From: Pyrinomonadaceae bacterium
GTDB taxonomy: Bacteria > Acidobacteriota > Blastocatellia > Pyrinomonadales > Pyrinomonadaceae
Reading direction: 5' to 3'
Length of the DNA: 61,614 nucleotides
NCBI GenBank assembly: GCA_036522475.1
Contig: DATDFT010000076.1
Coordinates: forward strand, 1-61,614
How positions within the stretch are numbered: the first letter of the stretch is position 1; the number at the start of each line of letters is the position of its first letter. The position numbers were made by a program, and so were the translations under genes. The notes below the pieces were generated by a model, which had not been told where the DNA came from, did no database searches, and saw nothing but the letters and a program-made list of their open reading frames with translations. Of this stretch, positions 695-61,614 are shown in pieces.

Positions 695-2263
695 TCAGAA
701 ATCTGCGACATTAAGTCTCGCGCCTGTGACCGTCTTGCCTTGCAGTGAAGGAGTAGGGATAGCGCTTTCCAGCAGCGCCCTTCGAATATCTTCTGCAGTC
801 GCGGCGGGATGTGTAGACGCGTATAACGCCGCAGCTCCAGTGATGTGCGGTGTCGCCTGTGAGGTACCACTGAGAGAATCGTAGCTGTTCGGCGGGATTG
901 TTGAAATGATCTCGGCGCCTGGAGCGCCGATATGCACTGACGTTCGTCCGAAATTCGAGAAACTGGCGAGGTTGCCGAACCGGTCGATAGCGGCGACTGC
1001 AATCACGCTGTTAAAGTTGACTCCGGGAGTTCCGCCCGCAGCCTGCGTATCTTTGCGCGTATCATAGGATGCCGGGTAAACCGGCGCCCGGTCATTATCG
1101 GTTCGGGAATTTCCCGCCGCAGCAATAAACAAAATGCCGGATCGCGCCGCCTGCTTAATTGCTTCGAGTAGCAATTGATCGTAGGGTGTGCCGTCCCAGG
1201 AGTTGTTTATTGCGACCACATTAACACCGCGCTCTTTCAAGCTCACAAAGAAATTGATCGCTTCAACGAGCCGGTCGGTGGGTGCATCCGTAGTGCCAAA
1301 AACCTTTGCCGTAATAATGCTAACGTACCAGTTGAGTCCGACCACACCAAGATCATTTCCTCCCGTTGCGCCAATCGTCCCGGCGACGTGCGTACCGTGG
1401 TCGTCACTGTTTTCCGCGTCATAGACGCTTCCCTTGCGATGCGCGAAGTCCCAGCCGTTAACGTCATCCACTAACCCGTCTCCGTCGTCATCTTTGCCAT
1501 TCGTACTTTTGTCCTGGCCGTTTCCATCCATGCCGGTTTCGCCGGAATTAGTCCAAATATTTGCCTCGAGGTCGGGATGATCCACTTGAACTCCACCATC
1601 AATGATGCCGACGGCGACCGCCCGCGACCCGACGTGTCCTTTGAACCATGCCTTTTCGGCTTGCGAGCCGAAAGCGCTGGTGGTTGGATTGGGGCCGATC
1701 GGTACGGGCAGGTCATCTCCGAACATACCCCAGAGAGCGCCCCTAACATATTCGGTATCGTTCGAGACATTTTGCTGAAGTGAATAGATCCAGTTCTTTT
1801 GGACGAACTTCACTCCCGCTTTGCCACGCAGCTTCGCGATTGCTTCATCCGGGCTTTCATCAGCTGGGAGATCCACCACTAAAAGGTCGCCCTCTCGCGG
1901 ATTATCAATGCTTCGGGTTATCGCCAAGTTGACCTGCGTGGCCTGGACGGTTTCCTGGACCTCAGCTCGGAGGCGTTCATTCTTTTGTTTCGCGGCGCTG
2001 AGGTCCCCAAGGCCTAGACGCATACGGGTGTCCTCTCGGGATTCAAGCTTTACCAAGACTTGATTCGGCACATACCGCGGCTCACGTGCGAGCTTCGGCG
2101 ACATTTCGCGTGAGCGCCATCGGACTCTTCTGGATCGTGATGTCGCGGGTTTGCCTTTAGGAGGACGGTTAGTTGTTTGATTCTGCGCACCCGTAAGCGG
2201 AACCAAAATAGCCAATATCACCAGCAATGCGATGATCGCAAACACGCCTTTAGGCTGCTTCAT
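695..2263 (-). CDS. Secreted subtilisin-like (S8) serine protease
   Basis: 522-aa ORF with an N-terminal hydrophobic signal (VFAIIALLVILAILVPLTGA). Triad motifs are VGIIDGGV (Asp), DHGTHVAGTIGA (His) and GTSQATPHITGAAAL (Ser). Confidence 0.9.
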   Translation of the reverse strand: MKQPKGVFAIIALLVILAILVPLTGAQNQTTNRPPKGKPATSRSRRVRWRSREMSPKLAREPRYVPNQVLVKLESREDTRMRLGLGDLSAAKQKNERLRAEVQETVQATQVNLAITRSIDNPREGDLLVVDLPADESPDEAIAKLRGKAGVKFVQKNWIYSLQQNVSNDTEYVRGALWGMFGDDLPVPIGPNPTTSAFGSQAEKAWFKGHVGSRAVAVGIIDGGVQVDHPDLEANIWTNSGETGMDGNGQDKSTNGKDDDGDGLVDDVNGWDFAHRKGSVYDAENSDDHGTHVAGTIGATGGNDLGVVGLNWYVSIITAKVFGTTDAPTDRLVEAINFFVSLKERGVNVVAINNSWDGTPYDQLLLEAIKQAARSGILFIAAAGNSRTDNDRAPVYPASYDTRKDTQAAGGTPGVNFNSVIAVAAIDRFGNLASFSNFGRTSVHIGAPGAEIISTIPPNSYDSLSGTSQATPHITGAAALYASTHPAATAEDIRRALLESAIPTPSLQGKTVTGARLNVADF

Positions 2264-2406
2264 ATTGCCTCGCTTTGCGGAGAGTGGTGACTCGGTACAG
2301 CCGTCCGTGTCTTCATCACTGTCTCAAAGTCACCCAACTGGTCCGAAACGGATGCTAATGCGGCTTTGCGTTGGGCCGGAAGGTGGGCGCTGCAATGATT
2401 GAACCG

Positions 2407-3264
2407 TTATCCGAGTGGCCCGTCTCCATCGGCCATCGTGATTCCTCCGCATTTGAAGGGATTAATGGTTTCTTGGGGAGGACGATTCGGCGAGGGTTCG
2501 AGCGGATCAGTTAATCGAAGCGCTCGGCACTCAAGCACCGGAATACCGGGAAAGAGTAAGGCATAGTAGGCTTGAAAATGATCAACGCCATTAGTATGCG
2601 CGTGGTGCGGCATCACGTTTTCGATTGCCACTGTAAATTGAATTGTCGGGTTGTGGTCAATCCTAAAAATCACGGTGCTGCCCACGCGAAGAACCAGCGC
2701 TTCACCCGGCCGAAGACTCACATCCAACTCCGCGGTCTCACCGATGAACCCAAAGTGTTGGACAGTTGGACGAGCAACGAGGCCAGTCAGGAAGTCAATG
2801 CCGTCGGTTTTGAATTTCGTTGTGAGCGTTCCGTTGGTCATACGGATAACGGGTTTAAGACGGCCGGGGATTAGCGATGCCGAAGGATGTAATGCATTTA
2901 TGTCCAGCAGCCAGCCGAAATCGTGCTGGTTGGGATCGGGATCGTCATGATTGTTCGGTCCGGTCCCCTGGCGCGCAATGCCTGGGCGGATGTTCCCAGC
3001 GGAATCTACAACGTCGAGATTCCACTCATTACCCTTCGCGAGGAAGCTGGCGATTTGCGCTTCGTCAACCACTAAACTGCGAGGGCCGCTGGGGTTCGGA
3101 TTGGGTGTCACCGTAATGTTCGAGAAATGATCTGGAATTCCCGGTAACCCTATCGAAGCCATGTTTTTGGTCGGCATTATGCCGACGTCAAATAGATTTC
3201 CACGCCGATCCCTGCGAAAAACCATTAGACCTTCAAATGTAACGGTAACTGGGGCGTCTGCCAT
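2407..3264 (-). CDS. Hypothetical protein (285 aa), no assignable domain
   Basis: Long ORF co-directional between the CHAT gene and the S8 protease gene. I recognise no motif in it. Confidence 0.55.
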   Translation of the reverse strand: MADAPVTVTFEGLMVFRRDRRGNLFDVGIMPTKNMASIGLPGIPDHFSNITVTPNPNPSGPRSLVVDEAQIASFLAKGNEWNLDVVDSAGNIRPGIARQGTGPNNHDDPDPNQHDFGWLLDINALHPSASLIPGRLKPVIRMTNGTLTTKFKTDGIDFLTGLVARPTVQHFGFIGETAELDVSLRPGEALVLRVGSTVIFRIDHNPTIQFTVAIENVMPHHAHTNGVDHFQAYYALLFPGIPVLECRALRLTDPLEPSPNRPPQETINPFKCGGITMADGDGPLG

Positions 3265-29705: not shown

Positions 29706-30398
29706 ATGAATCAGCCCGAGATCCGCGCCGCCATATTCGACTTTGACTATACGCTCGCCGACTCGTCTGAAGGATGTGTGGAGTGTGTTAACTTCGCGTT
29801 CCGCGAGATGGGGCTCGCCACACACCCGGCGGAGATTGTCTGCCGAACCATCGGACTGTCGTTGAAAGAAACTTTCGTTACTCTGGCCGGCGATCACGAC
29901 GCCGCTCGAATGCGCGAATTCGCAGGACTATTTGTGCAACGAGCGGATCAGGTGATGGTCGATTTGACTGTGATGTACGAATCAGCCCACGCCACCATCA
30001 CGGCGCTTCGCGAGAGAGGATTGAGTCTGGGTATCGTTTCAACCAAGTACCGCCACCGCATCGAACACGTTTTGGAACGAGAGAATCTGCGTCATTTCTT
30101 TGACGTTGTAATCGGCGGTGAGGACGTCGAGGAACACAAGCCGCACCCTGCGGGACTCCTCGAAGCCATCAAGCGACTCGAATGTACTCGGACATCGACG
30201 GTGTATGTCGGCGATAGCGTGGTGGACGCCGAAGTGGCCAAGCGAGCCGCGGTGCCGTTCGTCGCAGTGCTTTCGGGTGTCACGCCGGTAGATCACTTCG
30301 ATGGCTATGAACGTATGGGAACTTTGAAAGACGTCTCGGAGCTACCTCAACTCCTACTCGAGAGCGCGGAGCGCGAGACCCTTGGCGACGGTCGTTAA
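29706..30398 (+). CDS. HAD-superfamily phosphatase (phosphoglycolate phosphatase-like)
   Basis: Motif I AAIFDFDYTLADS (DxDxT), motif II GIVSTK and motif IV YVGDSVVD. Confidence 0.8.
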   Translation: MNQPEIRAAIFDFDYTLADSSEGCVECVNFAFREMGLATHPAEIVCRTIGLSLKETFVTLAGDHDAARMREFAGLFVQRADQVMVDLTVMYESAHATITALRERGLSLGIVSTKYRHRIEHVLERENLRHFFDVVIGGEDVEEHKPHPAGLLEAIKRLECTRTSTVYVGDSVVDAEVAKRAAVPFVAVLSGVTPVDHFDGYERMGTLKDVSELPQLLLESAERETLGDGR

Positions 30399-31124
30399 CT
30401 CTTCACCGCCTTTCAGCTTGTGACTTCCGAATGTCTTCGCGAAGAAGCGACGCACGTAAGGTACGAAGGAAGATCCTCCGGTGAGGAATACACTACCAAC
30501 GTCGCTGTAGCTAACGTTGTGTTGACTAAAAAGACTCTTAACGCACGTTGCGATGTTTTGAATGTCCTCCTGAATCCACGATTCAAAGCGCCAGCGTTCG
30601 AGAGTGTCGTTGATGTTCAAGGAGCCGTGCGCAAATACGAAGTCAGCGTCTTCGTTTACTGTTAATCCAACCTTTGTGCTCTCAACCGCACGATAAAGAG
30701 CGTAACCTAAGTTCTCGGAGATAATCTGAATCAACGCCGTTACTTTGTCAGGTTCCGACGCTTGATTCTTGACCTCTCGGAGGACGGTCATCGTCTTTGG
30801 ATCCTTGAGCAGAAACGTGCGATGCCAACTCGAGAGTTGTGAGTAGAGCCAGACAGGTACGGGAAGCTCCTTGCCTAACGAAACATAATGCGAGCCAAGG
30901 CCGAGTTTCGGCGCCACCAGGTTCATCATGATTCTGCTGTCGAACGTGTCGCCGGCAATGGCTACGCCCGAAGTTCCGACGACGGGATTTCTGCCGGTCT
31001 GTTTTCTGCCGGGACCAAGGTGGGCCAACGTGAAGTCGCTTGTTCCACCTCCAAAGTCGCCTATCAAAACTAATTCGTCGTGGTCCAGTTGAGTTTCATA
31101 CTGGTATGCCGCGGCAACTCCCCC
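30354..31124 (-). pseudogene. 5'-truncated Hsp70/actin-fold ATPase gene (C-terminal ~255 codons only)
   Basis: The frame reads ...AAAYQYETQLDHDELVLIGDFGGGTSDFTL (the Hsp70 phosphate-2 motif DxGGGTxD), then VFLTGGSSFVPYVRRFF. The reading frame is closed by an in-frame stop at 31125..31127. The ~180 N-terminal codons that should hold the phosphate-1 motif are absent. Confidence 0.6.
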
Positions 31125-31185
31125 TCACATCAAGCGGCGAAGCCGCAATGTTGAGCCAATAAGGAACTTTGTGCAAAGCGCTCCA
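31123..31185 (-). repeat. Repeat 'head module', copy 1 (minus orientation)
   Basis: The minus strand reads TGGAGCGCTTTGCACAAAGTTCCTTATTGGCTCAACATTGCGGCTTCGCCGCTTGATGTGAGG. It is colinear with 43344..43409 and 57978..58030. Confidence 0.85.
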
Positions 31186-31554: not shown

Positions 31555-32910
31555 ATGAATTCCCAGTTGGTTATTATTGAGAATCCACCCTCGTCCGTAC
31601 ATAAAACTCTAATCCGCGATTTGATGCCCGAGTTAAGTTCTCATGTGGAACTTGCGACGTGGGATTCGCTTACACTTCAAAAACTACAAGAACGCTCCAC
31701 ACAGGTGCTCGTCGCCGTCGCAATGCCGTCGTCACCGGAAGCGATCGGCCTGTTCAAGTGGCTTCGCGAGCATCCGATCCCAAGTCCTACGCTGGCAGTG
31801 CTTGCGAATGATGTAGACGATGAGACTTTGAGCATCGTGTCTCAGTCGACTGACGACTTCGTTCTGTGGCCCACGCATGCGGCGGAGCTCCGTCACCGCT
31901 TACAACGGATGGTTTGCATAAACCACAAGCGAGATGAGCTCGTCGCCGCTGAGGATCGTCTCACTGAAATACTGGGAATGGAGCAACTGGTTGGCAAACA
32001 CCCGAAGTTTATACGTTCTATCAAGACGATTCCCTTGATCGCCAAAAGTGATCTCCCGGTGCTTATCACCGGAGCCACCGGTACCGGAAAGGAACTGTGC
32101 GCTCATGCCATACATACGCTCAGCAAGCGTCGCAGTTTTCCCTTTATTCCACTCGACGGCGGCGCGATTCCGGACCACCTGTTTGAAAACGAATTATTCG
32201 GCCATGCGCGCGGCGCGTTTACCGATGCCCACTCGGCGCAAAAGGGATTGGCAGCGATGGCCGAAGGCGGAACTTTGTTTTTGGACGAAGTGGATGCACT
32301 TTCACCGGGAGCCCAAGCGAAGCTTTTGCGCTTTCTACAGGAACGCACTTACAAGCCACTCGGTAGTGATCAGTTCGTCAAAGCGACAGTCAACGTGATC
32401 GCAGCAACCAACCGTGATCTGGAGCGTTGTGTACAAGAGAAACTGTTTCGCGCCGATCTTTACTTTCGACTAAACGCATTGCGCTTGGATTTGCCTTCAT
32501 TGGTTGAGCGTAACAGCGACATTCCCGTGCTGGCCCGTCATTTCCTTCAGGCTAACTCCACACGAAAGTCGTTCACACCCGCTGCGCTGCGCAAGCTGCA
32601 AGCCTACGACTGGCCCGGCAACGTAAGAGAACTCTTCAATGTAGTTCAACGTGCGATGTTGTTTGCGGAAGGCCAGTATATCCTTCCCGAACATCTATCG
32701 GTGCCTGTTCCTGATGATCCGTCTCAAAACAACGGCGACTCTTTTCGCGATGCGCGTGCTCGAGCGATTGAAGCCTTCGAGAAACACTACGTCGAGAAGT
32801 TGCTGGAAGAGCACAACGGGAGCGTCACACGTGCCGCACTAGCGGCCGGAAAAGACCGGCGCGCATTCGGTCGATTGAAGAAAAAATACGCCCTCAAAAA
32901 GGTGGGTTGA
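31555..32910 (+). CDS. Sigma-54-dependent transcriptional activator (bEBP) with a degenerate receiver domain
   Basis: AAA+ core with Walker A GATGTGKE, the GAFTGA-type loop HARGAFTDA, Walker B LFLDEVD and WPGNVREL. C-terminal Fis-type HTH NGSVTRAALAAGKDRRAFGRLKKKY. The N-terminal REC-like fold lacks the phospho-acceptor (VLVAVAMP instead of xxxxDxxMP) and has WPT in place of KPF. Confidence 0.9.
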   Translation: MNSQLVIIENPPSSVHKTLIRDLMPELSSHVELATWDSLTLQKLQERSTQVLVAVAMPSSPEAIGLFKWLREHPIPSPTLAVLANDVDDETLSIVSQSTDDFVLWPTHAAELRHRLQRMVCINHKRDELVAAEDRLTEILGMEQLVGKHPKFIRSIKTIPLIAKSDLPVLITGATGTGKELCAHAIHTLSKRRSFPFIPLDGGAIPDHLFENELFGHARGAFTDAHSAQKGLAAMAEGGTLFLDEVDALSPGAQAKLLRFLQERTYKPLGSDQFVKATVNVIAATNRDLERCVQEKLFRADLYFRLNALRLDLPSLVERNSDIPVLARHFLQANSTRKSFTPAALRKLQAYDWPGNVRELFNVVQRAMLFAEGQYILPEHLSVPVPDDPSQNNGDSFRDARARAIEAFEKHYVEKLLEEHNGSVTRAALAAGKDRRAFGRLKKKYALKKVG

Positions 32911-32922
32911 ATTCACCGCACA

Positions 32923-32944
32923 GGTGGGTCACCTGTGACCCACC
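32923..32944. promoter_or_regulatory. Perfect 10-bp dyad GGTGGGTCAC-ct-GTGACCCACC (candidate enhancer / UAS, or terminator of the bEBP gene)
   Basis: It starts 13 nt after the bEBP stop and lies ~165 nt upstream of the sigma-54-like promoter at 33096. A third GGTGGGT half-site sits at 32901..32907. No T-tract follows. Confidence 0.4.
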
Positions 32945-33095
32945 CGCTGCAAATCAACTAAACCCCGCGATAGTTACAAATTTCTTCTTCACAACCGGGT
33001 AATGCAGATGTCGCCCTGGTCCATCAGCGACCCGGTCAGCAAATCTCGTCAAGCACCTTCCTCAACTAAACCCGCCTAAATCATTCAACTCCGTA

Positions 33096-33111
33096 TGGCT
33101 TCACGTTTGCT
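33096..33111 (+). promoter_or_regulatory. Candidate sigma-54 (-24/-12) promoter
   Basis: TGGCTTCACGTTTGCT compared with the consensus TGGCAC-N5-TTGCW. The GG-N10-GC spacing is exact, and both TGGC and TTGC are present. The -12 GC is only ~14 nt before the ATG at 33125, which implies a near-leaderless transcript. Confidence 0.45.
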
Positions 33112-33124
33112 ATTGCGTTGACCG

Positions 33125-33415
33125 ATGTCATCAACATATGGGTACGAGGAGATAGCAAAACAAATCTTGAGGTACTTCTTACGCAATCCTCAATCTGCTG
33201 ACAGTCTCGAAGGCGTAGCCCGTTGGCGTTTGCTTGAAGAAAACGTTCATCAGGCCATGGTTGAAACTCAGAGCGCTCTGGAACAACTCGTCGCCGAGGG
33301 ATATCTGCAAGTTGTTTCTGTTCCAGGCTCGGAGCTCATTTACATCTTGAACACCACCAGGCACAAAGAGGCGGAAGCGTTTGCCGGCTCTGGCGTCGAT
33401 GACAATCGCAAATAA
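33125..33415 (+). CDS. Small protein (96 aa), possibly winged-helix-like
   Basis: ORF between the bEBP gene and the repeat array. The pattern ILRYFLRNPQSADSLEGVARWRL...ALEQLVAEGYLQVVSVPGSELIYILN resembles small wHTH proteins. This is a weak, by-eye call. Confidence 0.55.
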   Translation: MSSTYGYEEIAKQILRYFLRNPQSADSLEGVARWRLLEENVHQAMVETQSALEQLVAEGYLQVVSVPGSELIYILNTTRHKEAEAFAGSGVDDNRK

Positions 33416-33435
33416 GGACGGCTTTGCACAAACAA

Positions 33436-33590
33436 GTCGGAACTGAGCGCCAAGGCGCACAAATGAGTCGGAACAAAGCGCCAAAGGCGCACAAATGAGT
33501 CGGAACAAAGCGCCAAAGGCGCGCAAATAAGTCGGAACAAAGCGCCAAAGGCGCGCAAATGAGTCGGAACAAAGCGCCAAAGGCGCGCAA
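33436..33590 (+). repeat. Tandem array A-left: 5 copies of a 31-32-nt unit with a GCGCC-AAA-GGCGC hairpin
   Basis: The unit is GTCGGAACAAAGCGCCAAAGGCGCGCAAATGA, starting at 33436, 33467, 33499, 33531 and 33563. There are no unique spacers. Confidence 0.95.
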
Positions 33591-33598
33591 TATGAAAG

Positions 33599-33779
33599 CC
33601 AGGGGCAAGCGTGAAGCGTAGCGGAACGCGTCGCCCCTGGGTAATGAGGAATAAATTTGAAAAGAGCACTGAAAGTGCGAAATATGGACGTCAATTATTC
33701 CGCTCTTTCAGAGCTTCACGGCCTTGGCGTTCCGTACCAGGGGCGACGCGCCTTCACTTTGTTCGGCGCTTGCCCCTGG
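33599..33779. repeat. Inverted pair of ~42-nt CCAGGGGC...GCCCCTGG elements around a GACGTC centre
   Basis: 33599..33640 (ccaggggcaagcgtgaagcgtagcggaacgcgtcgcccctgg) and 33737..33779 (ccaggggcgacgcgccttcactttgttcggcgcttgcccctgg) are approximate reverse complements. The central palindrome GACGTC is at 33687..33692. Confidence 0.9.
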
Positions 33780-33912
33780 CTGTCATATTCCGCGCCTTCG
33801 GCGCTGCCCTGGCTGTCATATTCCGCGCCTTCGGCGCTGGCATGCCCCCTGGCTGTCATATTCCGCGCCTTCGGCGCATGCCTCGGGCTGTCATATTCCG
33901 CGCCTTCGGCGC
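33778..33912 (-). repeat. Tandem array A-right: 4 copies of a 27-nt core in the opposite orientation to A-left
   Basis: GGCTGTCATATTCCGCGCCTTCGGCGC occurs at 33778, 33811, 33851 and 33886, with short fillers of 6-13 nt. Its reverse complement GCGCCGAAGGCGCGGAATATGACAGCC matches the last A-left unit (gcgccaaaggcgcgcaatatgaaagcc) and the 61.4-kb array. Confidence 0.95.
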
Positions 33913-33981
33913 TGGCATTAACGACGTTTTTGTTCAAAGCGAATAACGACCATTAGCGCAATCGTTAAGGAGATCAGTTAC

Positions 33982-34239
33982 ATGCTCACCATTACAAATC
34001 GCACGAGGCAGCTACTCATTGTCCCGAAGAACAGTGGATCGTCGGTATATCTCGGACCAGGTGAAGGCGCGAAGATGCCGAGAACCGAGATCGATGGCAA
34101 TACCAAGATTGAGAAACTCGTTCGCACAGGCGCTGTGTCAGTCGGCGAGGCTGCGCCGCAGTCTATGCCCGAAGCCGCTGTGAATCCTGAGCCCGAAGAG
34201 GAAGCTCCTCGTTCCAAAAAATCGAAGCCTCAGAAATAG
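33982..34239 (+). CDS. Small protein (85 aa) at the head of the eCIS operon, unknown function
   Basis: An AAGGAG RBS lies 9 nt upstream. The C-terminal half is disordered and charged (PEAAVNPEPEEEAPRSKKSKPQK). Confidence 0.55.
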   Translation: MLTITNRTRQLLIVPKNSGSSVYLGPGEGAKMPRTEIDGNTKIEKLVRTGAVSVGEAAPQSMPEAAVNPEPEEEAPRSKKSKPQK

Positions 34240-34273
34240 ATAAATCCATCCACAGCTAAGAAGGAGAATAGCG

Positions 34274-36640
34274 ATGGAAACTTTGCATCCAGGTGTCTAC
34301 ATCCAGGAAATCCCCAGTGGGCTGCGTCCTATTGAAGGGGTCAGCACATCGAATGCGGCCTTCATCGGCAAATCGCAAATGGGTCCGCTCAACCAGGCCA
34401 AGCTGGTGACGAACCCGCAGGAATTCGAAAACGCTTATGGCGGGTATTTAAGCGACAGCTCCCTGGCATTCGCTGTTCACCAGTTTTTCAACAACGGCGG
34501 GAAGAAGGCCTACATCGTCAGAGTCGCCGGCACAGGTGCGGTTGCAGCCGACATAAGTATCAAGGATCGGAAGGGAGCAAAAACGCTCACCATCGAAGCG
34601 GCAAACGAGGGAGCCTGGGGAAACAAGCTCGACGTTGTCATCACCGATGGACAATTGGATCCCGGCAACGAGTTCACCATCCAGGTTTATAAGGACCGCA
34701 GCGACCTGGTGCCGCCACTCTCCCCGCTCCTGCTCGAGACTCACAAAAATCTCAGCATGAATCCCGCTGCGAAGAACTACGTCGAGAACGTAGTTAACGC
34801 AAACTCGAAGTATGTGGCGATAACGGTCGATGTAACGAATAACGCGACTGCGAACGCCGGGACAAGTCGAAGTGGCCAACTATCTATAGGTAATGGCGCC
34901 GTCGCTTTGAAGCTCGGCATAGCCAACGGCGGAACTGAGGCTGCGGGTGGAGTTGGCACTAACGGAACGAGTCGAAGCGGCGCCACTCCTTCAACTAACC
35001 CGCCCGCCGATCAACGCAAGTTCCTGATCAACCTTGATGGTGACGGTGCCCAGGAAATAACGATTCCAGCCACAGCGGCAACGGGCGACGACATCGCAGC
35101 CGAGATACAAAAAGCAGTTCGCGCTCTGACTGCGAACACTCCTGCCAATCAGCCCGCGTTCGACGGTTTCACTTCTTCTTACGACGTTTCGGTCGCCGCA
35201 GGAAATCCGTCGTACAAGCTCTTCTCCGGCACCACGGGCGCAGGCTCTTCTGTCGTCGTAACCAACTCCGCTTCAAATGCGATCAGTTTACCTGCGGGTG
35301 TGAAAAAGTTTGTCATCGAAATAGACGGTGATGGACCACACGTTGTTACGCTATCGGCCGGAGCTCTGGCGAACGGTGCTGCAATTGCCACGGACATCCA
35401 GAACGCCGTCCAGGCGTTGATACCGAAGCGGGCTGCGAATACGGCGGCATTCAAACCACCGCCGGCTCCAGGATTTACCTGCACCTACGACACGTCTGCG
35501 GCCGCCGGCAATCCGTCGTTCTTACTGACAAGCGGAACCCCGGCAGGAGCCGGGAGGCTCAATTCCTCAGTGCGCGTGACTGACGCACCGAGTGACAACG
35601 TCGCCGCCACACTCAAGCTCGGACTAAAAAACACCGGCACTGAAATCGGTGGCTCGGCGATACTGCGTCCCGCTAATTCGAAGGTTCCAGGATTTCCCGG
35701 AGACACTGAATATCACCTGGGCGACGCGTCGGTAATCGGCAACGTCGCCGGCCCGCCTGTTTTCGGAAATGACGGTTCGCAGCCGCAGGCGGCGGATCAC
35801 AAAAATGGCTTTACGGCGCTCGACGTGGTTCGCGACGTCAACATCGTTGCTGTTCCCGGCATCGGCGACGCAGACGTAGTTGGCTTCGGAGCGAGTTACT
35901 GTGCGCTCCGTGGCGATTGTTTCTTCATTGGCGATACGAAAGTCGACGATGACACTGTCGAGGAGGCAAAGCTCTTTATTGACAGTCTCGATAAGACCTC
36001 GTACGCCGCAGTTTACTTTCCGTGGCTGAAAGTCTCTGACCCGACCGGGCAATCTCCTGAACCAATCAAGGTGCCACCGTCTGGTTTTGTGGCCGGCTTG
36101 TATGCGCGCATCGACGCGAAGCGCGGCGTGTGGAAAGCACCCGCCGGCACTGAAGCGAGCGTCAACGGTGCACTGAGTCTGTTGGCCGATATCACGGACG
36201 TCCAACAAGACTTTCTGAATCCGATCGGCATGAATGTCATTCGTCAATTTCCAGGTGCGGGCAGAGTGGTCTGGGGTACGCGGACTCTCGCCACTGTCAA
36301 AGACCCGGAATACCGTTATGTACCTGTGCGGCGAACGGCAATCTTCCTCGAGCAGAGCATCTACAACGGAATTCAGTGGGCCGTGTTTGAGCCGAATGAT
36401 GATGACCTGTGGGCCAGCCTGCGGCTCAACATCGGAGCGTTCATGACATTGCAATTTCGAGCCGGAGCATTTCAGGGCAAGTCGGCGAAGGATGCTTTCT
36501 TCGTCAAGTGTGACAACGAAACAACGACACAGGGAGACATCGACGCCGGCATCGTCAACATACTGGTCGGGTTTGCGCCATTGAAGCCGGCAGAGTTTGT
36601 CATCCTGAAGCTGACACAGATCGTGGGCCAGCAAGCCTAG
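34274..36640 (+). CDS. Contractile tail sheath protein (Afp2/Cis2-like) with a large inserted domain pair
   Basis: 788 aa. N-terminus METLHPGVYIQEIPSG and C-terminal block GVWKAPAGTEASVNG...NPIGMNVIRQFPGAGRVVWGTRTL are typical of the phage/CIS sheath family. An AAGGAGAA RBS is present. Confidence 0.95.
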   Translation: METLHPGVYIQEIPSGLRPIEGVSTSNAAFIGKSQMGPLNQAKLVTNPQEFENAYGGYLSDSSLAFAVHQFFNNGGKKAYIVRVAGTGAVAADISIKDRKGAKTLTIEAANEGAWGNKLDVVITDGQLDPGNEFTIQVYKDRSDLVPPLSPLLLETHKNLSMNPAAKNYVENVVNANSKYVAITVDVTNNATANAGTSRSGQLSIGNGAVALKLGIANGGTEAAGGVGTNGTSRSGATPSTNPPADQRKFLINLDGDGAQEITIPATAATGDDIAAEIQKAVRALTANTPANQPAFDGFTSSYDVSVAAGNPSYKLFSGTTGAGSSVVVTNSASNAISLPAGVKKFVIEIDGDGPHVVTLSAGALANGAAIATDIQNAVQALIPKRAANTAAFKPPPAPGFTCTYDTSAAAGNPSFLLTSGTPAGAGRLNSSVRVTDAPSDNVAATLKLGLKNTGTEIGGSAILRPANSKVPGFPGDTEYHLGDASVIGNVAGPPVFGNDGSQPQAADHKNGFTALDVVRDVNIVAVPGIGDADVVGFGASYCALRGDCFFIGDTKVDDDTVEEAKLFIDSLDKTSYAAVYFPWLKVSDPTGQSPEPIKVPPSGFVAGLYARIDAKRGVWKAPAGTEASVNGALSLLADITDVQQDFLNPIGMNVIRQFPGAGRVVWGTRTLATVKDPEYRYVPVRRTAIFLEQSIYNGIQWAVFEPNDDDLWASLRLNIGAFMTLQFRAGAFQGKSAKDAFFVKCDNETTTQGDIDAGIVNILVGFAPLKPAEFVILKLTQIVGQQA

Positions 36641-43343: not shown

Positions 43344-43359
43344 TGGAGACTGCTTTGCA
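43344..43359 (+). promoter_or_regulatory. Candidate internal sigma-54 (-24/-12) promoter
   Basis: TGGAGACTGCTTTGCA has exact GG-N10-GC spacing and a consensus -12 TTGCA. The -24 element is TGGA rather than TGGC. It starts 4 nt after the stop at 43340 and lies 275 nt upstream of the next gene. Confidence 0.35.
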
Positions 43360-43585
43360 CAAAAAGTTCCTATCGGCTCGAAGTCGCGGCTTCGCCGCCC
43401 GATGTGAGGCAAGGCTATGCCTTGCCGGACGACCTTTCTTTTTCAATGGCGGGCTATGCCCTCGGTTCGGGCTTAGCCCCCAAAGATTGCAGGCCAAAGG
43501 CCGCACCAGGGGCATAGCCCAGAATCTCTAATAGGACTCTCACGGCAAGGCTTAGCCTTGCCTCACATCAGGCGGCAAAGCCGCG
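43344..43585 (+). repeat. Repeat head module copy 2 plus a nested inverted-repeat element (eight short GC hairpins)
   Basis: The outer arms 43385..43427 and 43543..43585 are 43 nt with 3 mismatches. The inner arms are GGGCTATGCCC (43451..43461) and GGGGCATAGCCC (43509..43520). Small hairpins include GCGGC-TTC-GCCGC, GGCAAGGC-TAT-GCCTTGCC, GGGC-TTA-GCCC and GGCC-AAA-GGCC. Confidence 0.9.
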
Positions 43586-43633
43586 GCGGAAACGTAAAGA
43601 TGACCTTTTGTGGAAAGCCACTGGAGAATGCAA

Positions 43634-60677: not shown

Positions 60678-61184
60678 TTAGGATGGTCCATCGATTTCGA
60701 CGCGGCGGTGTAGTAGCAGACGGGCGGGTTGCGTAGCCGAGCTGGAGACGAGAAGACATTCAGTTGCATCGCGAGTGAATTTCGCGATGCCACCGGATTC
60801 ATTTGAAACGTCGGCTTCAAAGTCACGCGCGAGCACGACATGCATTTTCTCGAGCCAGTTGTTCGGTGATGCAGGCGACGGTTGGAGCTCGAAGCCGTTA
60901 ACCCAGGAGTTTTCGTGATGCTCTTGAGCTCGTGTGATCTCGATGAGCAATCGCGAGACGATCGCGTCAACAGTTATCGGGTCGACAAGGTAATGATTGT
61001 ACTCGAGCCCGCCGGACAACTGTCGCCAGTCTTCGTTCGGTGGAATGGCCACGTAACCGTGTTTACCGAGGAGCGTGAGAACGAGTTCCGGAGTTTCAGC
61101 GATTGCATATTCCGACAACGCGACCAGCGATAATTGTGACTGGTCATTCGAAGTTTTTTCGGGAGCGTCCGACATGGTGTTCAT
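60678..61184 (-). CDS. Hypothetical protein (168 aa), convergent with the HExxH-OmpA gene
   Basis: Clean ORF whose stop lies 6 nt from the stop of the convergent gene. No recognisable motif. Confidence 0.5.
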   Translation of the reverse strand: MNTMSDAPEKTSNDQSQLSLVALSEYAIAETPELVLTLLGKHGYVAIPPNEDWRQLSGGLEYNHYLVDPITVDAIVSRLLIEITRAQEHHENSWVNGFELQPSPASPNNWLEKMHVVLARDFEADVSNESGGIAKFTRDATECLLVSSSATQPARLLLHRRVEIDGPS

Positions 61185-61359: not shown

Positions 61360-61614
61360 GGCTTTGCACTGAGCGCCAAGGGCGTGGAATATGCGCGCAC
61401 TGTGAACAACGTCAGCGCCAAAGGCGCGAAATATAGCGCAATGTGAACAATGCCAGCGCCAAAGGCGCGGAATATGCGCGCAATGTGAACAATGCCAGCG
61501 CCAAAGGCGCGGAATATGCGCGCAATGTGAACAATGCCAGCGCCAAAGGCGCGGAATATAGCGCAATGTGAACAATGCCAGCGCCAAAGGCGCGGAATAT
61601 GCGCGCAATGTGAA
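61360..61614 (+). repeat. Tandem array B: at least 6 copies of a 41-42-nt unit, homologous to array A; truncated by the window end
   Basis: The unit is AGCGCCAAAGGCGCGGAATATGCGCGCAATGTGAACAATGCC, starting at 61372, 61414, 61455, 61497, 61539 and 61580. The array opens with GGCTTTGCACTGAGCGCCAAGG, as array A does (33420..). Confidence 0.95.

What the first reader, a model, noticed from the sequence alone, without database searches (positions are those of the whole stretch)
33421..33912. ~480-bp composite palindrome of hairpin tandem repeats between the regulatory gene and the sheath operon
The left side has five 32-nt units, each with a GCGCC-AAA-GGCGC hairpin, and then a 42-nt CCAGGGGC...GCCCCTGG element. 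The centre is AT-rich around GACGTC (33687..33692). The right side mirrors this with the reverse-complement 42-nt element followed by four 27-nt cores whose reverse complement matches the left units (GCGCCRAAGGCGCGSAATATGA). The whole region can fold as one giant imperfect hairpin studded with about 11 local hairpins. It occupies the entire space between 33125..33415 and the first eCIS gene. It is not a CRISPR array because it has no unique spacers. Possible roles are an RNase III processing or stability element, a transcription attenuator or insulator for read-through from the sigma-54 promoter, a protein-binding array, or a recombination hotspot.
Basis: seen in the sequence. Interest (0 to 1): 0.65.

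Follow-up and report, generated by a model that had tools for sequence, protein, structure and literature searches.

The report
Hairpin-rich MITE inserted before eCIS genes
The palindromic hairpin array upstream of the sheath gene is one copy of a small non-coding mobile element (a MITE) that is scattered through the genomes of related soil Acidobacteria, so it is an ordinary selfish insertion whose hairpin units vary in number between strains and not a dedicated control device for the injection-machine genes.

Summary
The repeats are real. Window 33420-33941 (522 bp) is a single MITE. It has outer terminal inverted repeats (GGCTTTGCAC...), an 8/9 target-site duplication (AATAAGGAC / AATAACGAC) that overlaps the stop codon of the 96-aa gene, and a 234-bp core (33573-33806).

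- The core aligns end to end with 89 copies in 81 fetched loci from Pyrinomonadaceae and other Acidobacteriota MAGs.
- In those genomes 18 of 24 TIR pairs carry perfect 9-bp duplications.
- Copies are intergenic and are not linked to eCIS genes.
- Four more distant eCIS loci, and one metatranscriptome contig, have the same gene order with an empty site (42-46 nt instead of 566).
- Near-identical strains all carry the element, but with 2-8 left units and 3-5 right units.
- Across copies, compensatory changes preserve the local hairpins and not the "giant hairpin".
- The arms resemble the Rfam Acido-Lenti-1 motif but score below its threshold.
- The mobilising transposase was not found. The 9-bp duplication and GGCTTTG termini point to the IS5/IS903 group.
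- Any effect on operon expression is untested.

The parts
33411..33419 (.). Left target-site duplication AATAAGGAC; it contains the TAA stop (33413-33415) of the 96-aa gene
   Evidence: Matches 33942-33950 at 8/9. An empty-site RNA contig carries AATAAGGAC only once.
33420..33446 (+). Left outer terminal inverted repeat, GGCTTTGCACAAACAAGTCGGAACTGA
   Evidence: Same terminus as the GGCTTTGC[C/A]nCAAAAGTCGGAAT ends of copies in other genomes.
33447..33586 (+). Left tandem array: five P2 hairpins (GCGCC-AA(A)-GGCGC) with a 31-32 nt period. The unit is the inner part of the TIR plus P2. The last unit belongs to the core.
   Evidence: Unit number is 2-8 in near-identical strains.
33573..33806 (.). 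234-bp conserved core of the MITE: P2L 33574-33586, P1L 33599-33640, central hairpins 33666-33678 and 33702-33714, P1R 33737-33779, P2R 33792-33804
   Evidence: Aligns end to end with 89 copies in 81 loci at 70-90% identity. The local hairpins are supported by compensatory changes.
33775..33913 (+). Right-arm units that resemble the Rfam Acido-Lenti-1 motif (linker GCUGUCAUAUUCCG, then P2, then CU)
   Evidence: 30.4-30.5 bits against a gathering score of 37. The layout was compared with the seed alignment.
33792..33912 (+). Right tandem array: four P2 hairpins (GCGCC-TTC-GGCGC) spaced 33, 40 and 35 nt. The unit is the 3' half of P1, the linker and P2.
   Evidence: There are 3-5 units in other strains.
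33913..33941 (-). Right outer terminal inverted repeat (diverged), ...CGACGTTTTTGTTCAAAGCG
   Evidence: Its reverse complement aligns with the left TIR. The boundary is set by the TSD and the empty sites.
33942..33950 (.). Right target-site duplication AATAACGAC
33125..33415 (+). 96-aa gene of unknown function, upstream neighbour. It is conserved next to the 85-aa gene in all related eCIS loci.
33982..34239 (+). 85-aa gene of unknown function, downstream neighbour. It directly precedes the sheath gene (34274-36640).
61362..61614 (+). Second copy of the family: left terminus GGCTTTGCAC followed by at least 6 units with a 41-42 nt period. It runs off the window.

Best explanation
Window 33420-33941 is one copy of a non-autonomous cut-and-paste transposable element (a MITE). 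It inserted into the short spacer, about 35-45 nt long, between two co-oriented small genes at the head of the eCIS operon and duplicated 9 bp of target (AATAAGGAC).

The canonical element is about 275-320 bp. It consists of outer TIRs (GGCTTTGCnnCAAAAGTCGGAAT...) and a palindromic core. Each half of the core is a two-hairpin module (P1, linker, P2) that faces outward, and two small central hairpins lie between the halves. In this copy the segments that contain the stable GC hairpin P2 have been tandemly amplified on both sides independently. The most likely mechanism is replication slippage or unequal recombination at the hairpins (inferred). This gives 522 bp here and different unit numbers in sister strains.

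Shown here: TIRs, the TSD, dispersal, empty sites, unit-number variation and conservation of the local hairpins. Inferred: mobilisation in trans by a DDE transposase of the IS5/IS903 type, and a presence at this locus that is selfish or neutral. As a by-product, the transcript (if it reads through) carries a highly structured insert that could alter mRNA processing or stability.
For:
- Discrete unit: window 33573-33806 aligns end to end with 89 copies in 81 loci.
- TIR and TSD: 18 of 24 TIR pairs have perfect 9/9 duplications, against a mode of 4/9 and a maximum of 7/9 for control 9-mers. The window copy has an 8/9 duplication.
- Empty sites: L126, L127, L128 and L131 have the same gene order (bEBP, ~97 aa, ~88 aa, sheath, tube, baseplate) with only 42-46 nt between the small genes and no units or TIRs. 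An RNA contig joins 33407 to 33967 and contains AATAAGGAC once.
- Intergenic bias: 3 of 71 copies are spanned by an open frame, against 53% of random intervals.
- No recurrent neighbouring gene family and no eCIS link.
- Unit-number variation among contigs that encode identical flanking proteins: gaps of 435-627 bp.
- Tandem unit arrays also occur in copies in other genomes (L071 6x33 nt, L087 7x37 nt).
- IS903 comparison: a real IS903B copy is 1057 bp, has IRs that start GGCTTTG and has a 9-bp TSD. All IS5/IS903-group elements in PMC3281130 Table 2 have 9-bp direct repeats.
Against: - No autonomous element with these TIRs and no IS5/IS903-like transposase was found in about 0.9 Mb of fetched loci plus the window.
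- The TIR similarity to IS903 beyond the first 7 nt is weak (p about 0.003-0.05 against shuffles).
- The unit-number differences come from short-read metagenome assemblies, which can collapse or mis-join tandem repeats.
- Every near-identical strain carries the element, and the hairpins are kept by compensatory change. This leaves room for a selected function.
Confidence: 0.87

Rival explanations
1. Exapted MITE. The insertion is mobile in origin but now acts as an intercistronic RNA element. It would stabilise the upstream 96-aa segment, or provide RNase III sites or partial attenuation, so that the small first gene and the structural genes are expressed at different levels. The variable unit number would tune that level between strains. 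This reading is compatible with the main explanation.
For: - The element lies inside a probable operon. A sigma-54-like -24/-12 match (33096-33111) lies upstream of the 96-aa gene, and an RNA contig of an element-free relative spans both small genes.
- The transcript would be extremely structured.
- The element is fixed in all near-identical strains.
- Local hairpins are preserved by compensatory changes.
- Sheath transcripts at up to 100% identity occur in rhizosphere metatranscriptomes, so the operon is not silenced in that lineage or in one with an identical sheath sequence.
- Established knowledge: REP/BIME, ERIC and Correia elements affect mRNA stability or RNase III processing.
Against: - No RNA contig spans either junction of the occupied site.
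- The hairpins on the sense strand have no U-tracts.
- The hairpin conservation is a property of the whole dispersed family, not of this locus.
- Related eCIS loci work without the element.
Confidence: 0.2
2. REP/BIME-type element, with hairpin units spread by a RAYT (Y1/HUH) transposase and not by a DDE enzyme.
For: - It consists of short GC-rich extragenic palindromes, clustered in both orientations.
- Local hairpins are conserved, which would suit recognition as single-stranded DNA.
- Arrays of units occur in several genomes.
- TIR-associated tyrosine transposases are described in Acidobacteria (PMC3733652).
Against: - The whole element has TIRs and regular 9-bp target duplications, which Y1 transposition does not produce.
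- The units have no terminal GTAG or CGTC tag (sequence).
- ORF clustering found no recurrent small transposase next to copies.
Confidence: 0.05
3. An array of genuine small-RNA genes of the Acido-Lenti-1 class, transcribed on their own.
For: - Four sub-threshold Rfam hits with the same layout (P1, linker, P2).
- The taxon is right.
- Covariation is seen in the hairpins.
- Core-containing contigs with other flanks are present in metatranscriptomes.
Against: - The score is below gathering here (30.5 against 37), and no copy in 18 other loci reaches it.
- The motifs are the two arms of a TIR- and TSD-bounded element.
- No sigma-70-like promoter was found in the region.
- RNA contigs do not show discrete small transcripts.
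Confidence: 0.08
4. An eCIS-specific cis-regulatory array, for example binding sites for the neighbouring sigma-54 activator or an insulator dedicated to this operon.
For: It lies between the activator and small gene on one side and the structural genes on the other. The sites are repeated.
Against: - It is absent from four related eCIS loci that keep the same activator and gene order.
- The same element occurs at dozens of unrelated loci.
- It lies downstream of the putative promoter, not upstream.
Confidence: 0.03

Closest known systems
MITEs derived from DDE insertion sequences, in particular the IS903 group of the IS5 family
   Same: TIRs, a fixed-length 9-bp target duplication, termini that begin GGCTTTG (identical to the first 7 nt of IS903), small size, no coding capacity, many dispersed intergenic copies, and empty sites in relatives.
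   Different: No cognate transposase was found. The TIR similarity beyond 7 nt is weak. The interior is a structured palindrome with conserved local hairpins, not a deleted IS remnant. At least four sub-families with different interiors share the same 17-nt termini.
Acido-Lenti-1 RNA motif (Rfam RF01687; Weinberg et al. 2010, PMC2864571)
   Same: The layout is the same: P1 (CCnnGGGC...), the linker GCUnnnAUAUUCCG, a 5-bp P2 with a 3-nt loop, then CU. The phylum is the same. Members are often repeated in tandem and as outward-facing pairs. The function is unknown.
   Different: The score is below the gathering threshold. The P1 loop is 26 nt instead of a tetraloop, and the extra units keep only the 3' half of P1. 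Here the motif is clearly an arm of a mobile element, which has not been reported for the Rfam family.
Correia/NEMIS elements of Neisseria and ERIC elements of enterobacteria
   Same: Palindromic MITE-like elements that insert between genes, are co-transcribed, and fold into long hairpins that can be RNase III substrates or change mRNA stability.
   Different: They differ in TIRs, target duplication (TA for Correia) and taxa. They do not show internal tandem amplification of hairpin units. No transcript-level effect has been shown here.
REP/BIME clusters of Enterobacteria and Pseudomonas (REPINs, RAYT-mobilised)
   Same: Short GC-rich extragenic hairpins, clustered in direct and inverted orientation between genes, with variable copy numbers.
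   Different: REPs lack TIRs and target duplications and carry a terminal GTAG or CGTC tag. This element has TIRs and a 9-bp duplication and has no such tag.

Membership tests
[quoted passage not shown] | Terminal inverted repeats | tested here: met
   The outer TIR GGCTTTGC[C/A]nCAAAAGTCGGAAT is present at both ends of copies. The window copy has them at 33420-33446 and 33913-33941, the right one diverged.
[quoted passage not shown] | Target-site duplication of fixed length | tested here: met
   18 of 24 TIR pairs have a perfect 9/9 duplication. Controls have a mode of 4/9 and a maximum of 7/9. The window copy has 8/9.
[quoted passage not shown] | Small size and no coding capacity | tested here: met
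   Typical length is 275-320 bp. The ORFs that cross the window copy are made of repeats and change with unit number.
[quoted passage not shown] | Many dispersed copies, with occupied and empty sites | tested here: met
   More than 105 stretches and 89 full cores were found in related genomes. There are four empty-site loci and one empty-site RNA contig.
[quoted passage not shown] | A cognate autonomous IS with the same TIRs | tested here: inconclusive
   None was found among the fetched loci. The long TIR pairs in L081 and L027 are IS110-family insertions into a sister MITE. tblastn with the IS903B transposase gave a best E-value of 0.34.
IS5 family, IS903 group (as the source of the MITE) | 9-bp direct repeats and GGC termini | tested here: met
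   for the MITE. for a real IS903B copy (1057 bp, IR GGCTTTGTTGAATAAATC, TSD GACACAACG). PMC3281130 Table 2.
IS5 family, IS903 group (as the source of the MITE) | A DDE_Tnp_1 transposase that recognises these ends | tested here: inconclusive
   It was not found in the sequence on hand.
Rfam RF01687 Acido-Lenti-1 | Covariance-model score at or above the gathering score (37 bits) | tested here: not met
   The score is 30.4-30.5 bits for the right units and 25.5 bits for the left arm. There were no hits at gathering threshold in 18 other loci that carry copies.
Rfam RF01687 Acido-Lenti-1 | Layout of P1, conserved linker, 5-bp P2 and CU; found in Acidobacteria | tested here: met
   The cmscan alignment was compared with the seed alignment. 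Window 33737-33805 has the complete layout, with a 26-nt P1 loop.
REP/BIME (RAYT-associated) | A terminal GTAG or CGTC tag on the palindrome, and no target duplication | tested here: not met
   The units begin AGCGCC and end GGCGCT(G), with no tag. The elements carry 9-bp duplications.
CRISPR array | Unique spacers between the repeats | tested here: not met
   The stretches between hairpins are themselves repeated.

The most novel reading that the evidence does not exclude
The abundant Rfam family Acido-Lenti-1, listed as an sRNA of unknown function, may in general be the structured arm of a TIR- and TSD-bounded MITE superfamily and not a free-standing RNA gene. Its local hairpins, which are kept by compensatory change, would be needed for the element's propagation or persistence. 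The hairpin-unit VNTR left at insertion sites would then act as a strain-variable control on downstream operons such as this eCIS.
Probability: 0.25. Interest if true: 0.55.

Novelty: new member of a known kind. Interest (0 to 1): 0.33.

Why it matters
- It removes a false lead. The striking palindrome is not an eCIS control device, and the same applies to the sister elements elsewhere in this operon.
- It shows that the 96-aa and 85-aa genes were originally adjacent and probably belong to the operon.
- It describes an apparently unreported, high-copy MITE superfamily of soil Pyrinomonadaceae with modular interiors. This explains why metagenome contigs of these organisms break at such sites.
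- It gives a concrete and testable origin for an abundant Rfam motif of unknown function.
- The unit-number variation could serve as a strain marker for these uncultured bacteria.

Tried and rejected
- Rfam at gathering threshold on 18 loci: no hits.
- Clustering of ORFs from 105 loci to find a recurrent transposase: the largest cluster was an artefact of frames that read through the repeat, and no transposase was enriched.
- The long TIR pairs in L081 (1376 bp) and L027 (1620 bp) were tested as candidate parents. Both are IS110-family (DEDD) elements that sit in the middle of a sister MITE sub-family, so they were rejected as parents.
- L060, L082 and L085 were also checked as candidates. They are ordinary genes that lie between unrelated TIR hits.
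- tblastn with the IS903B transposase against all loci and the window: nothing significant.
- RNA runs (8 metatranscriptomes): no contig spans a junction of the occupied site.
- The giant-hairpin model was rejected as the conserved structure.
- A sigma-54 promoter inside or at the right end of the element: no acceptable match.
- Sigma-70-like promoters in 32850-34350: none.
- The CRISPR, REP/RAYT and activator-binding-array readings were rejected for the reasons given under the rival explanations.

Full report
**Observation.**
- Left array: five direct units with a 31-32 nt period (33426-33595), each with a GCGCC-AA(A)-GGCGC hairpin.
- A 42-nt CCAGGGGC...GCCCCTGG element lies at 33599-33640, and an AT-rich centre contains GACGTC at 33687-33692.
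- A mirror element lies at 33737-33780, followed by four right-hand units (33762-33918).
- The hairpin word occurs 14 times in the window against 0.32 expected.
- As RNA the region folds at -252 kcal/mol, z = -9.2 against shuffles.

Two points in the description need correcting. First, the arrays are not mirror images. The left unit is the inner part of the outer inverted repeat plus hairpin P2. The right unit is the 3' half of hairpin P1, the linker and P2. Second, the same core recurs in another array at 61372-61614, which runs off the window.

**The element is dispersed.**
Nearly all are in Pyrinomonadaceae or other Acidobacteriota MAGs, many per genome, and very often as a +/- pair about 200 bp apart. 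The window has the same geometry (33573+ and 33784-).
- BLAST of the region against those loci shows that window 33573-33806 behaves as a discrete unit. It aligns end to end, always at the same boundaries, with 89 distinct copies in 81 loci at 70-90% identity.
- The window's own genome was not among the loci fetched.

**It is a MITE.**
- Outside the core, many copies carry a second pair of inverted repeats, GGCTTTGC[C/A]nCAAAAGTCGGAAT... The 9 bases beyond each end are direct repeats.
- In a systematic count, 18 of 24 TIR pairs have perfect 9/9 duplications. Control 9-mers taken 15 nt further out have a mode of 4/9 and a maximum of 7/9. Typical element length is 275-320 bp.
- The window copy has the left terminus GGCTTTGCAC at 33420 and a diverged right terminus ending ...GTTCAAAGCG at 33941. 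It is flanked by AATAAGGAC (33411-33419, containing the TAA stop of the 96-aa gene) and AATAACGAC (33942-33950), an 8/9 match.
- Copies are strongly intergenic: 3 of 71 are spanned by an open frame on both sides, against 53% of random same-size intervals.
- No gene family, and no eCIS gene, recurs beside the copies.

**Empty sites.**
- Homologues of the 85-aa protein at 62-74% identity lie in four contigs (L126, L127, L128, L131). These have the same gene order: sigma-54 activator, ~97-aa gene, ~88-aa gene, sheath, tube, baseplate.
- In those contigs only 42-46 nt separate the two small genes, and there are no units or TIRs.
- Joining the window's flanks with one copy of the duplication leaves 35 nt that end in the same conserved TTAAGGAGA..AC-ATG ribosome-binding region.
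- Independently, a rhizosphere metatranscriptome contig joins 33407 to 33967 through 32 nt that contain AATAAGGAC exactly once. This is a relative without the element, and it suggests that the two small genes are co-transcribed there. DNA carry-over in that library cannot be excluded.

**Variation between strains.**
- Soil-metagenome contigs that encode the identical 96-aa and 85-aa proteins all carry the element, with a nearly invariant core.
- The gap between the two genes is 435, 474, 511, 566, 606 or 627 bp, because the left array has 2-8 units and the right array 3-5 units, and some units carry their own variants.
- Several contigs break inside the element, as expected for a repeat.
- These are short-read assemblies, so the counts need long-read confirmation.
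- Tandem arrays of the unit also occur in copies in other genomes, for example 6 x 33 nt in L071 and 7 x 37 nt in L087. Amplification of segments that contain P2 is therefore a recurrent property of the family. Slippage or unequal exchange at the stable GC hairpin is the likely mechanism (inference).

**Which structure is conserved.** I aligned 90 cores and tested two structures on the alignment.

| Measure | Local hairpins (P2, P1, two central hairpins on each side) | One giant hairpin |
|---|---|---|
| Cells forming a standard pair | 97.7% | 91.1% |
| Cells changed on both sides (shuffled mean) | 155 (46) | 62 (67) |
| Covariation score (shuffled mean) | 0.105 (0.045) | 0.041 (0.043) |
| Shuffles reaching the observed score | 0/500 | 423/500 |

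- For the local hairpins the slid-partner controls score 0.011-0.027.
- The clearest cases are the central hairpins: GCAC/GTGC, GCCC/GGGC and GGCC/GGCC on the left, and GCTC/GAGC, GGCC/GGCC and GCCC/GGGC on the right.
- In the giant-hairpin model the central pairs are broken in 38 of 90 copies.
- The copies fall into sub-lineages, so the number of independent events is small. Even so, the two central hairpins keep their own pairing while ceasing to be mirror images of each other. This points to a constraint on local single-stranded structure, in RNA or DNA.

**Relation to Rfam.**
- The right-hand units and the left arm give the only Rfam hits in the window, to Acido-Lenti-1 (RF01687), at 30.5 and 25.5 bits against a gathering score of 37.
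- None of 18 other loci with copies reaches the threshold.
- The seed alignment has the layout P1, GCUAnnnnAUnnCG, P2, CU. Window 33737-33805 has the same layout with a 26-nt P1 loop in place of a tetraloop, which explains the lower score.
- Seed members in Lentisphaera also occur in tandem arrays (periods of 69-200 nt) and as outward-facing pairs.
- The original authors listed the motif as a probable non-cis-regulatory RNA with no stated function. [quoted passage not shown]
- By Rfam's criterion this element is a look-alike and not a member. The resemblance suggests, but does not show, that the motif family as a whole is a mobile-element module.

**The mobilising enzyme.**
- No transposase recurs beside copies.
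- Two long TIR-bounded stretches (L081, L027) contain IS110-family DEDD transposases (Pfam). Their ends lie in the middle of a different MITE sub-family that shares the same 17-nt termini. They are therefore insertions into a MITE, as is known for IS110 relatives that target REPs or transposon ends, and not the parent.
- At least four sub-families with different interiors share the termini and the 9-bp duplication. Window 43351-43619 is one of them.
- A 9-bp duplication with GGC termini is the signature of the IS903 group of the IS5 family. I confirmed this on a real IS903B copy: 1057 bp, IR GGCTTTGTTGAATAAATC, TSD GACACAACG. A published table agrees (PMC3281130).
- The first 7 nt of the termini are identical to IS903, but the rest of the TIR is only weakly similar.
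- No IS903-like protein is encoded in the roughly 0.9 Mb I hold.
- The assignment remains a lead.

**Consequences at this locus.**
- A sigma-54-like -24/-12 match (TGGCTTCACGTTTGCT, 33096-33111) precedes the 96-aa gene. If it is real, the element lies inside the operon transcript.
- The sense strand has no hairpin followed by a U-tract, and no sigma-70-like promoter was found.
- Sheath transcripts at up to 100% identity occur in rhizosphere metatranscriptomes. The operon is therefore expressed in this lineage or in one with an identical sheath sequence.
- No RNA contig spans either junction of the occupied site. The contigs on the core break at 33573 and 33805 into other flanks, so they come from other copies.
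- Read-through, processing and stability effects therefore remain untested. They are plausible only by analogy with REP/BIME, ERIC and Correia elements.

**Verdict.** The interpretation as a dedicated eCIS regulatory structure is not supported. The feature is a new member of a well-known kind, a MITE. It has three points of moderate interest: strain-variable internal amplification of hairpin units, local hairpins kept by compensatory change, and a likely link to an Rfam motif of unknown function.

Noticed in passing
window 43351-43619: The nested inverted-repeat element in the only large gap inside the eCIS operon has the same termini (TGCTTTGCACAAAAAGT / ACCTTTTGTGGAAAGCC) as the MITE studied here but a different interior (GCGGCTTCGCCGC and CCTCACATC modules). 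It looks like a decayed target duplication plus a TIR end.
   Followed up: partly
window 61362-61614: A second copy of the same family begins with GGCTTTGCAC and continues with at least 6 units of 41-42 nt (P2 hairpin, GGAATATG and a different spacer). It lies upstream of the minus-strand gene 60678-61184 and runs off the window, so its right end and TSD are unknown.
   Followed up: partly
window 31117-31177 and 30354-31067: A fragment of a sister MITE (CCTCACATCAAGCGGCGAAGCCGC...AACTTTGTGCAAAGC) abuts a truncated Hsp70-like gene (237 aa). Sister contigs (L106-L111, L122) encode a full 425-434 aa protein, and L122 has 527 nt that the window lacks at exactly this point. This indicates a deletion next to the repeat in the window's strain. 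L123 and L125 share the deletion.
   Followed up: partly
L122:3319-6027: One contig is 99% identical to the window upstream. After a single right-hand unit it continues into a sister repeat module and a minus-strand 597-aa Peptidase_S74 gene that matches nothing in the window. This is either a real rearrangement at the repeat or an assembly chimera.
   Followed up: partly
L081:4045-5389, L027:5886-7470, L010:~1976-3200: IS110-family (DEDD) insertion sequences, with their own subterminal inverted repeats (GGACACAGTCAGTAC...), sit in the centre of a sister MITE sub-family that shares the 17-nt termini. Two unrelated IS110 proteins do this, which suggests that these ISs target that MITE specifically.
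   Followed up: partly
window 33125-33415 and 33982-34239: Two small genes (96 aa and 85 aa) with no Pfam family sit in this order, directly before the sheath gene and after a sigma-54 activator, in every related eCIS locus examined. They are probably conserved operon members of unknown function.
   Followed up: partly
window 33096-33111: A sigma-54-like match, TGGCTTCACGTTTGCT (GG-N10-GC spacing), lies 14 nt upstream of the 96-aa gene's ATG. The number of matches in the whole window is no more than chance (29 observed, 29.7 expected), so the site stands on its position alone.
   Followed up: no
L081:4020-5743: An IS110-bearing MITE shell and a standard MITE lie head to tail and share the same 9-mer, GATGACTGC, at all three junctions. 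The standard copy carries about 66 nt of the IS110-bearing unit's right end. This indicates recombination between family members.
   Followed up: no
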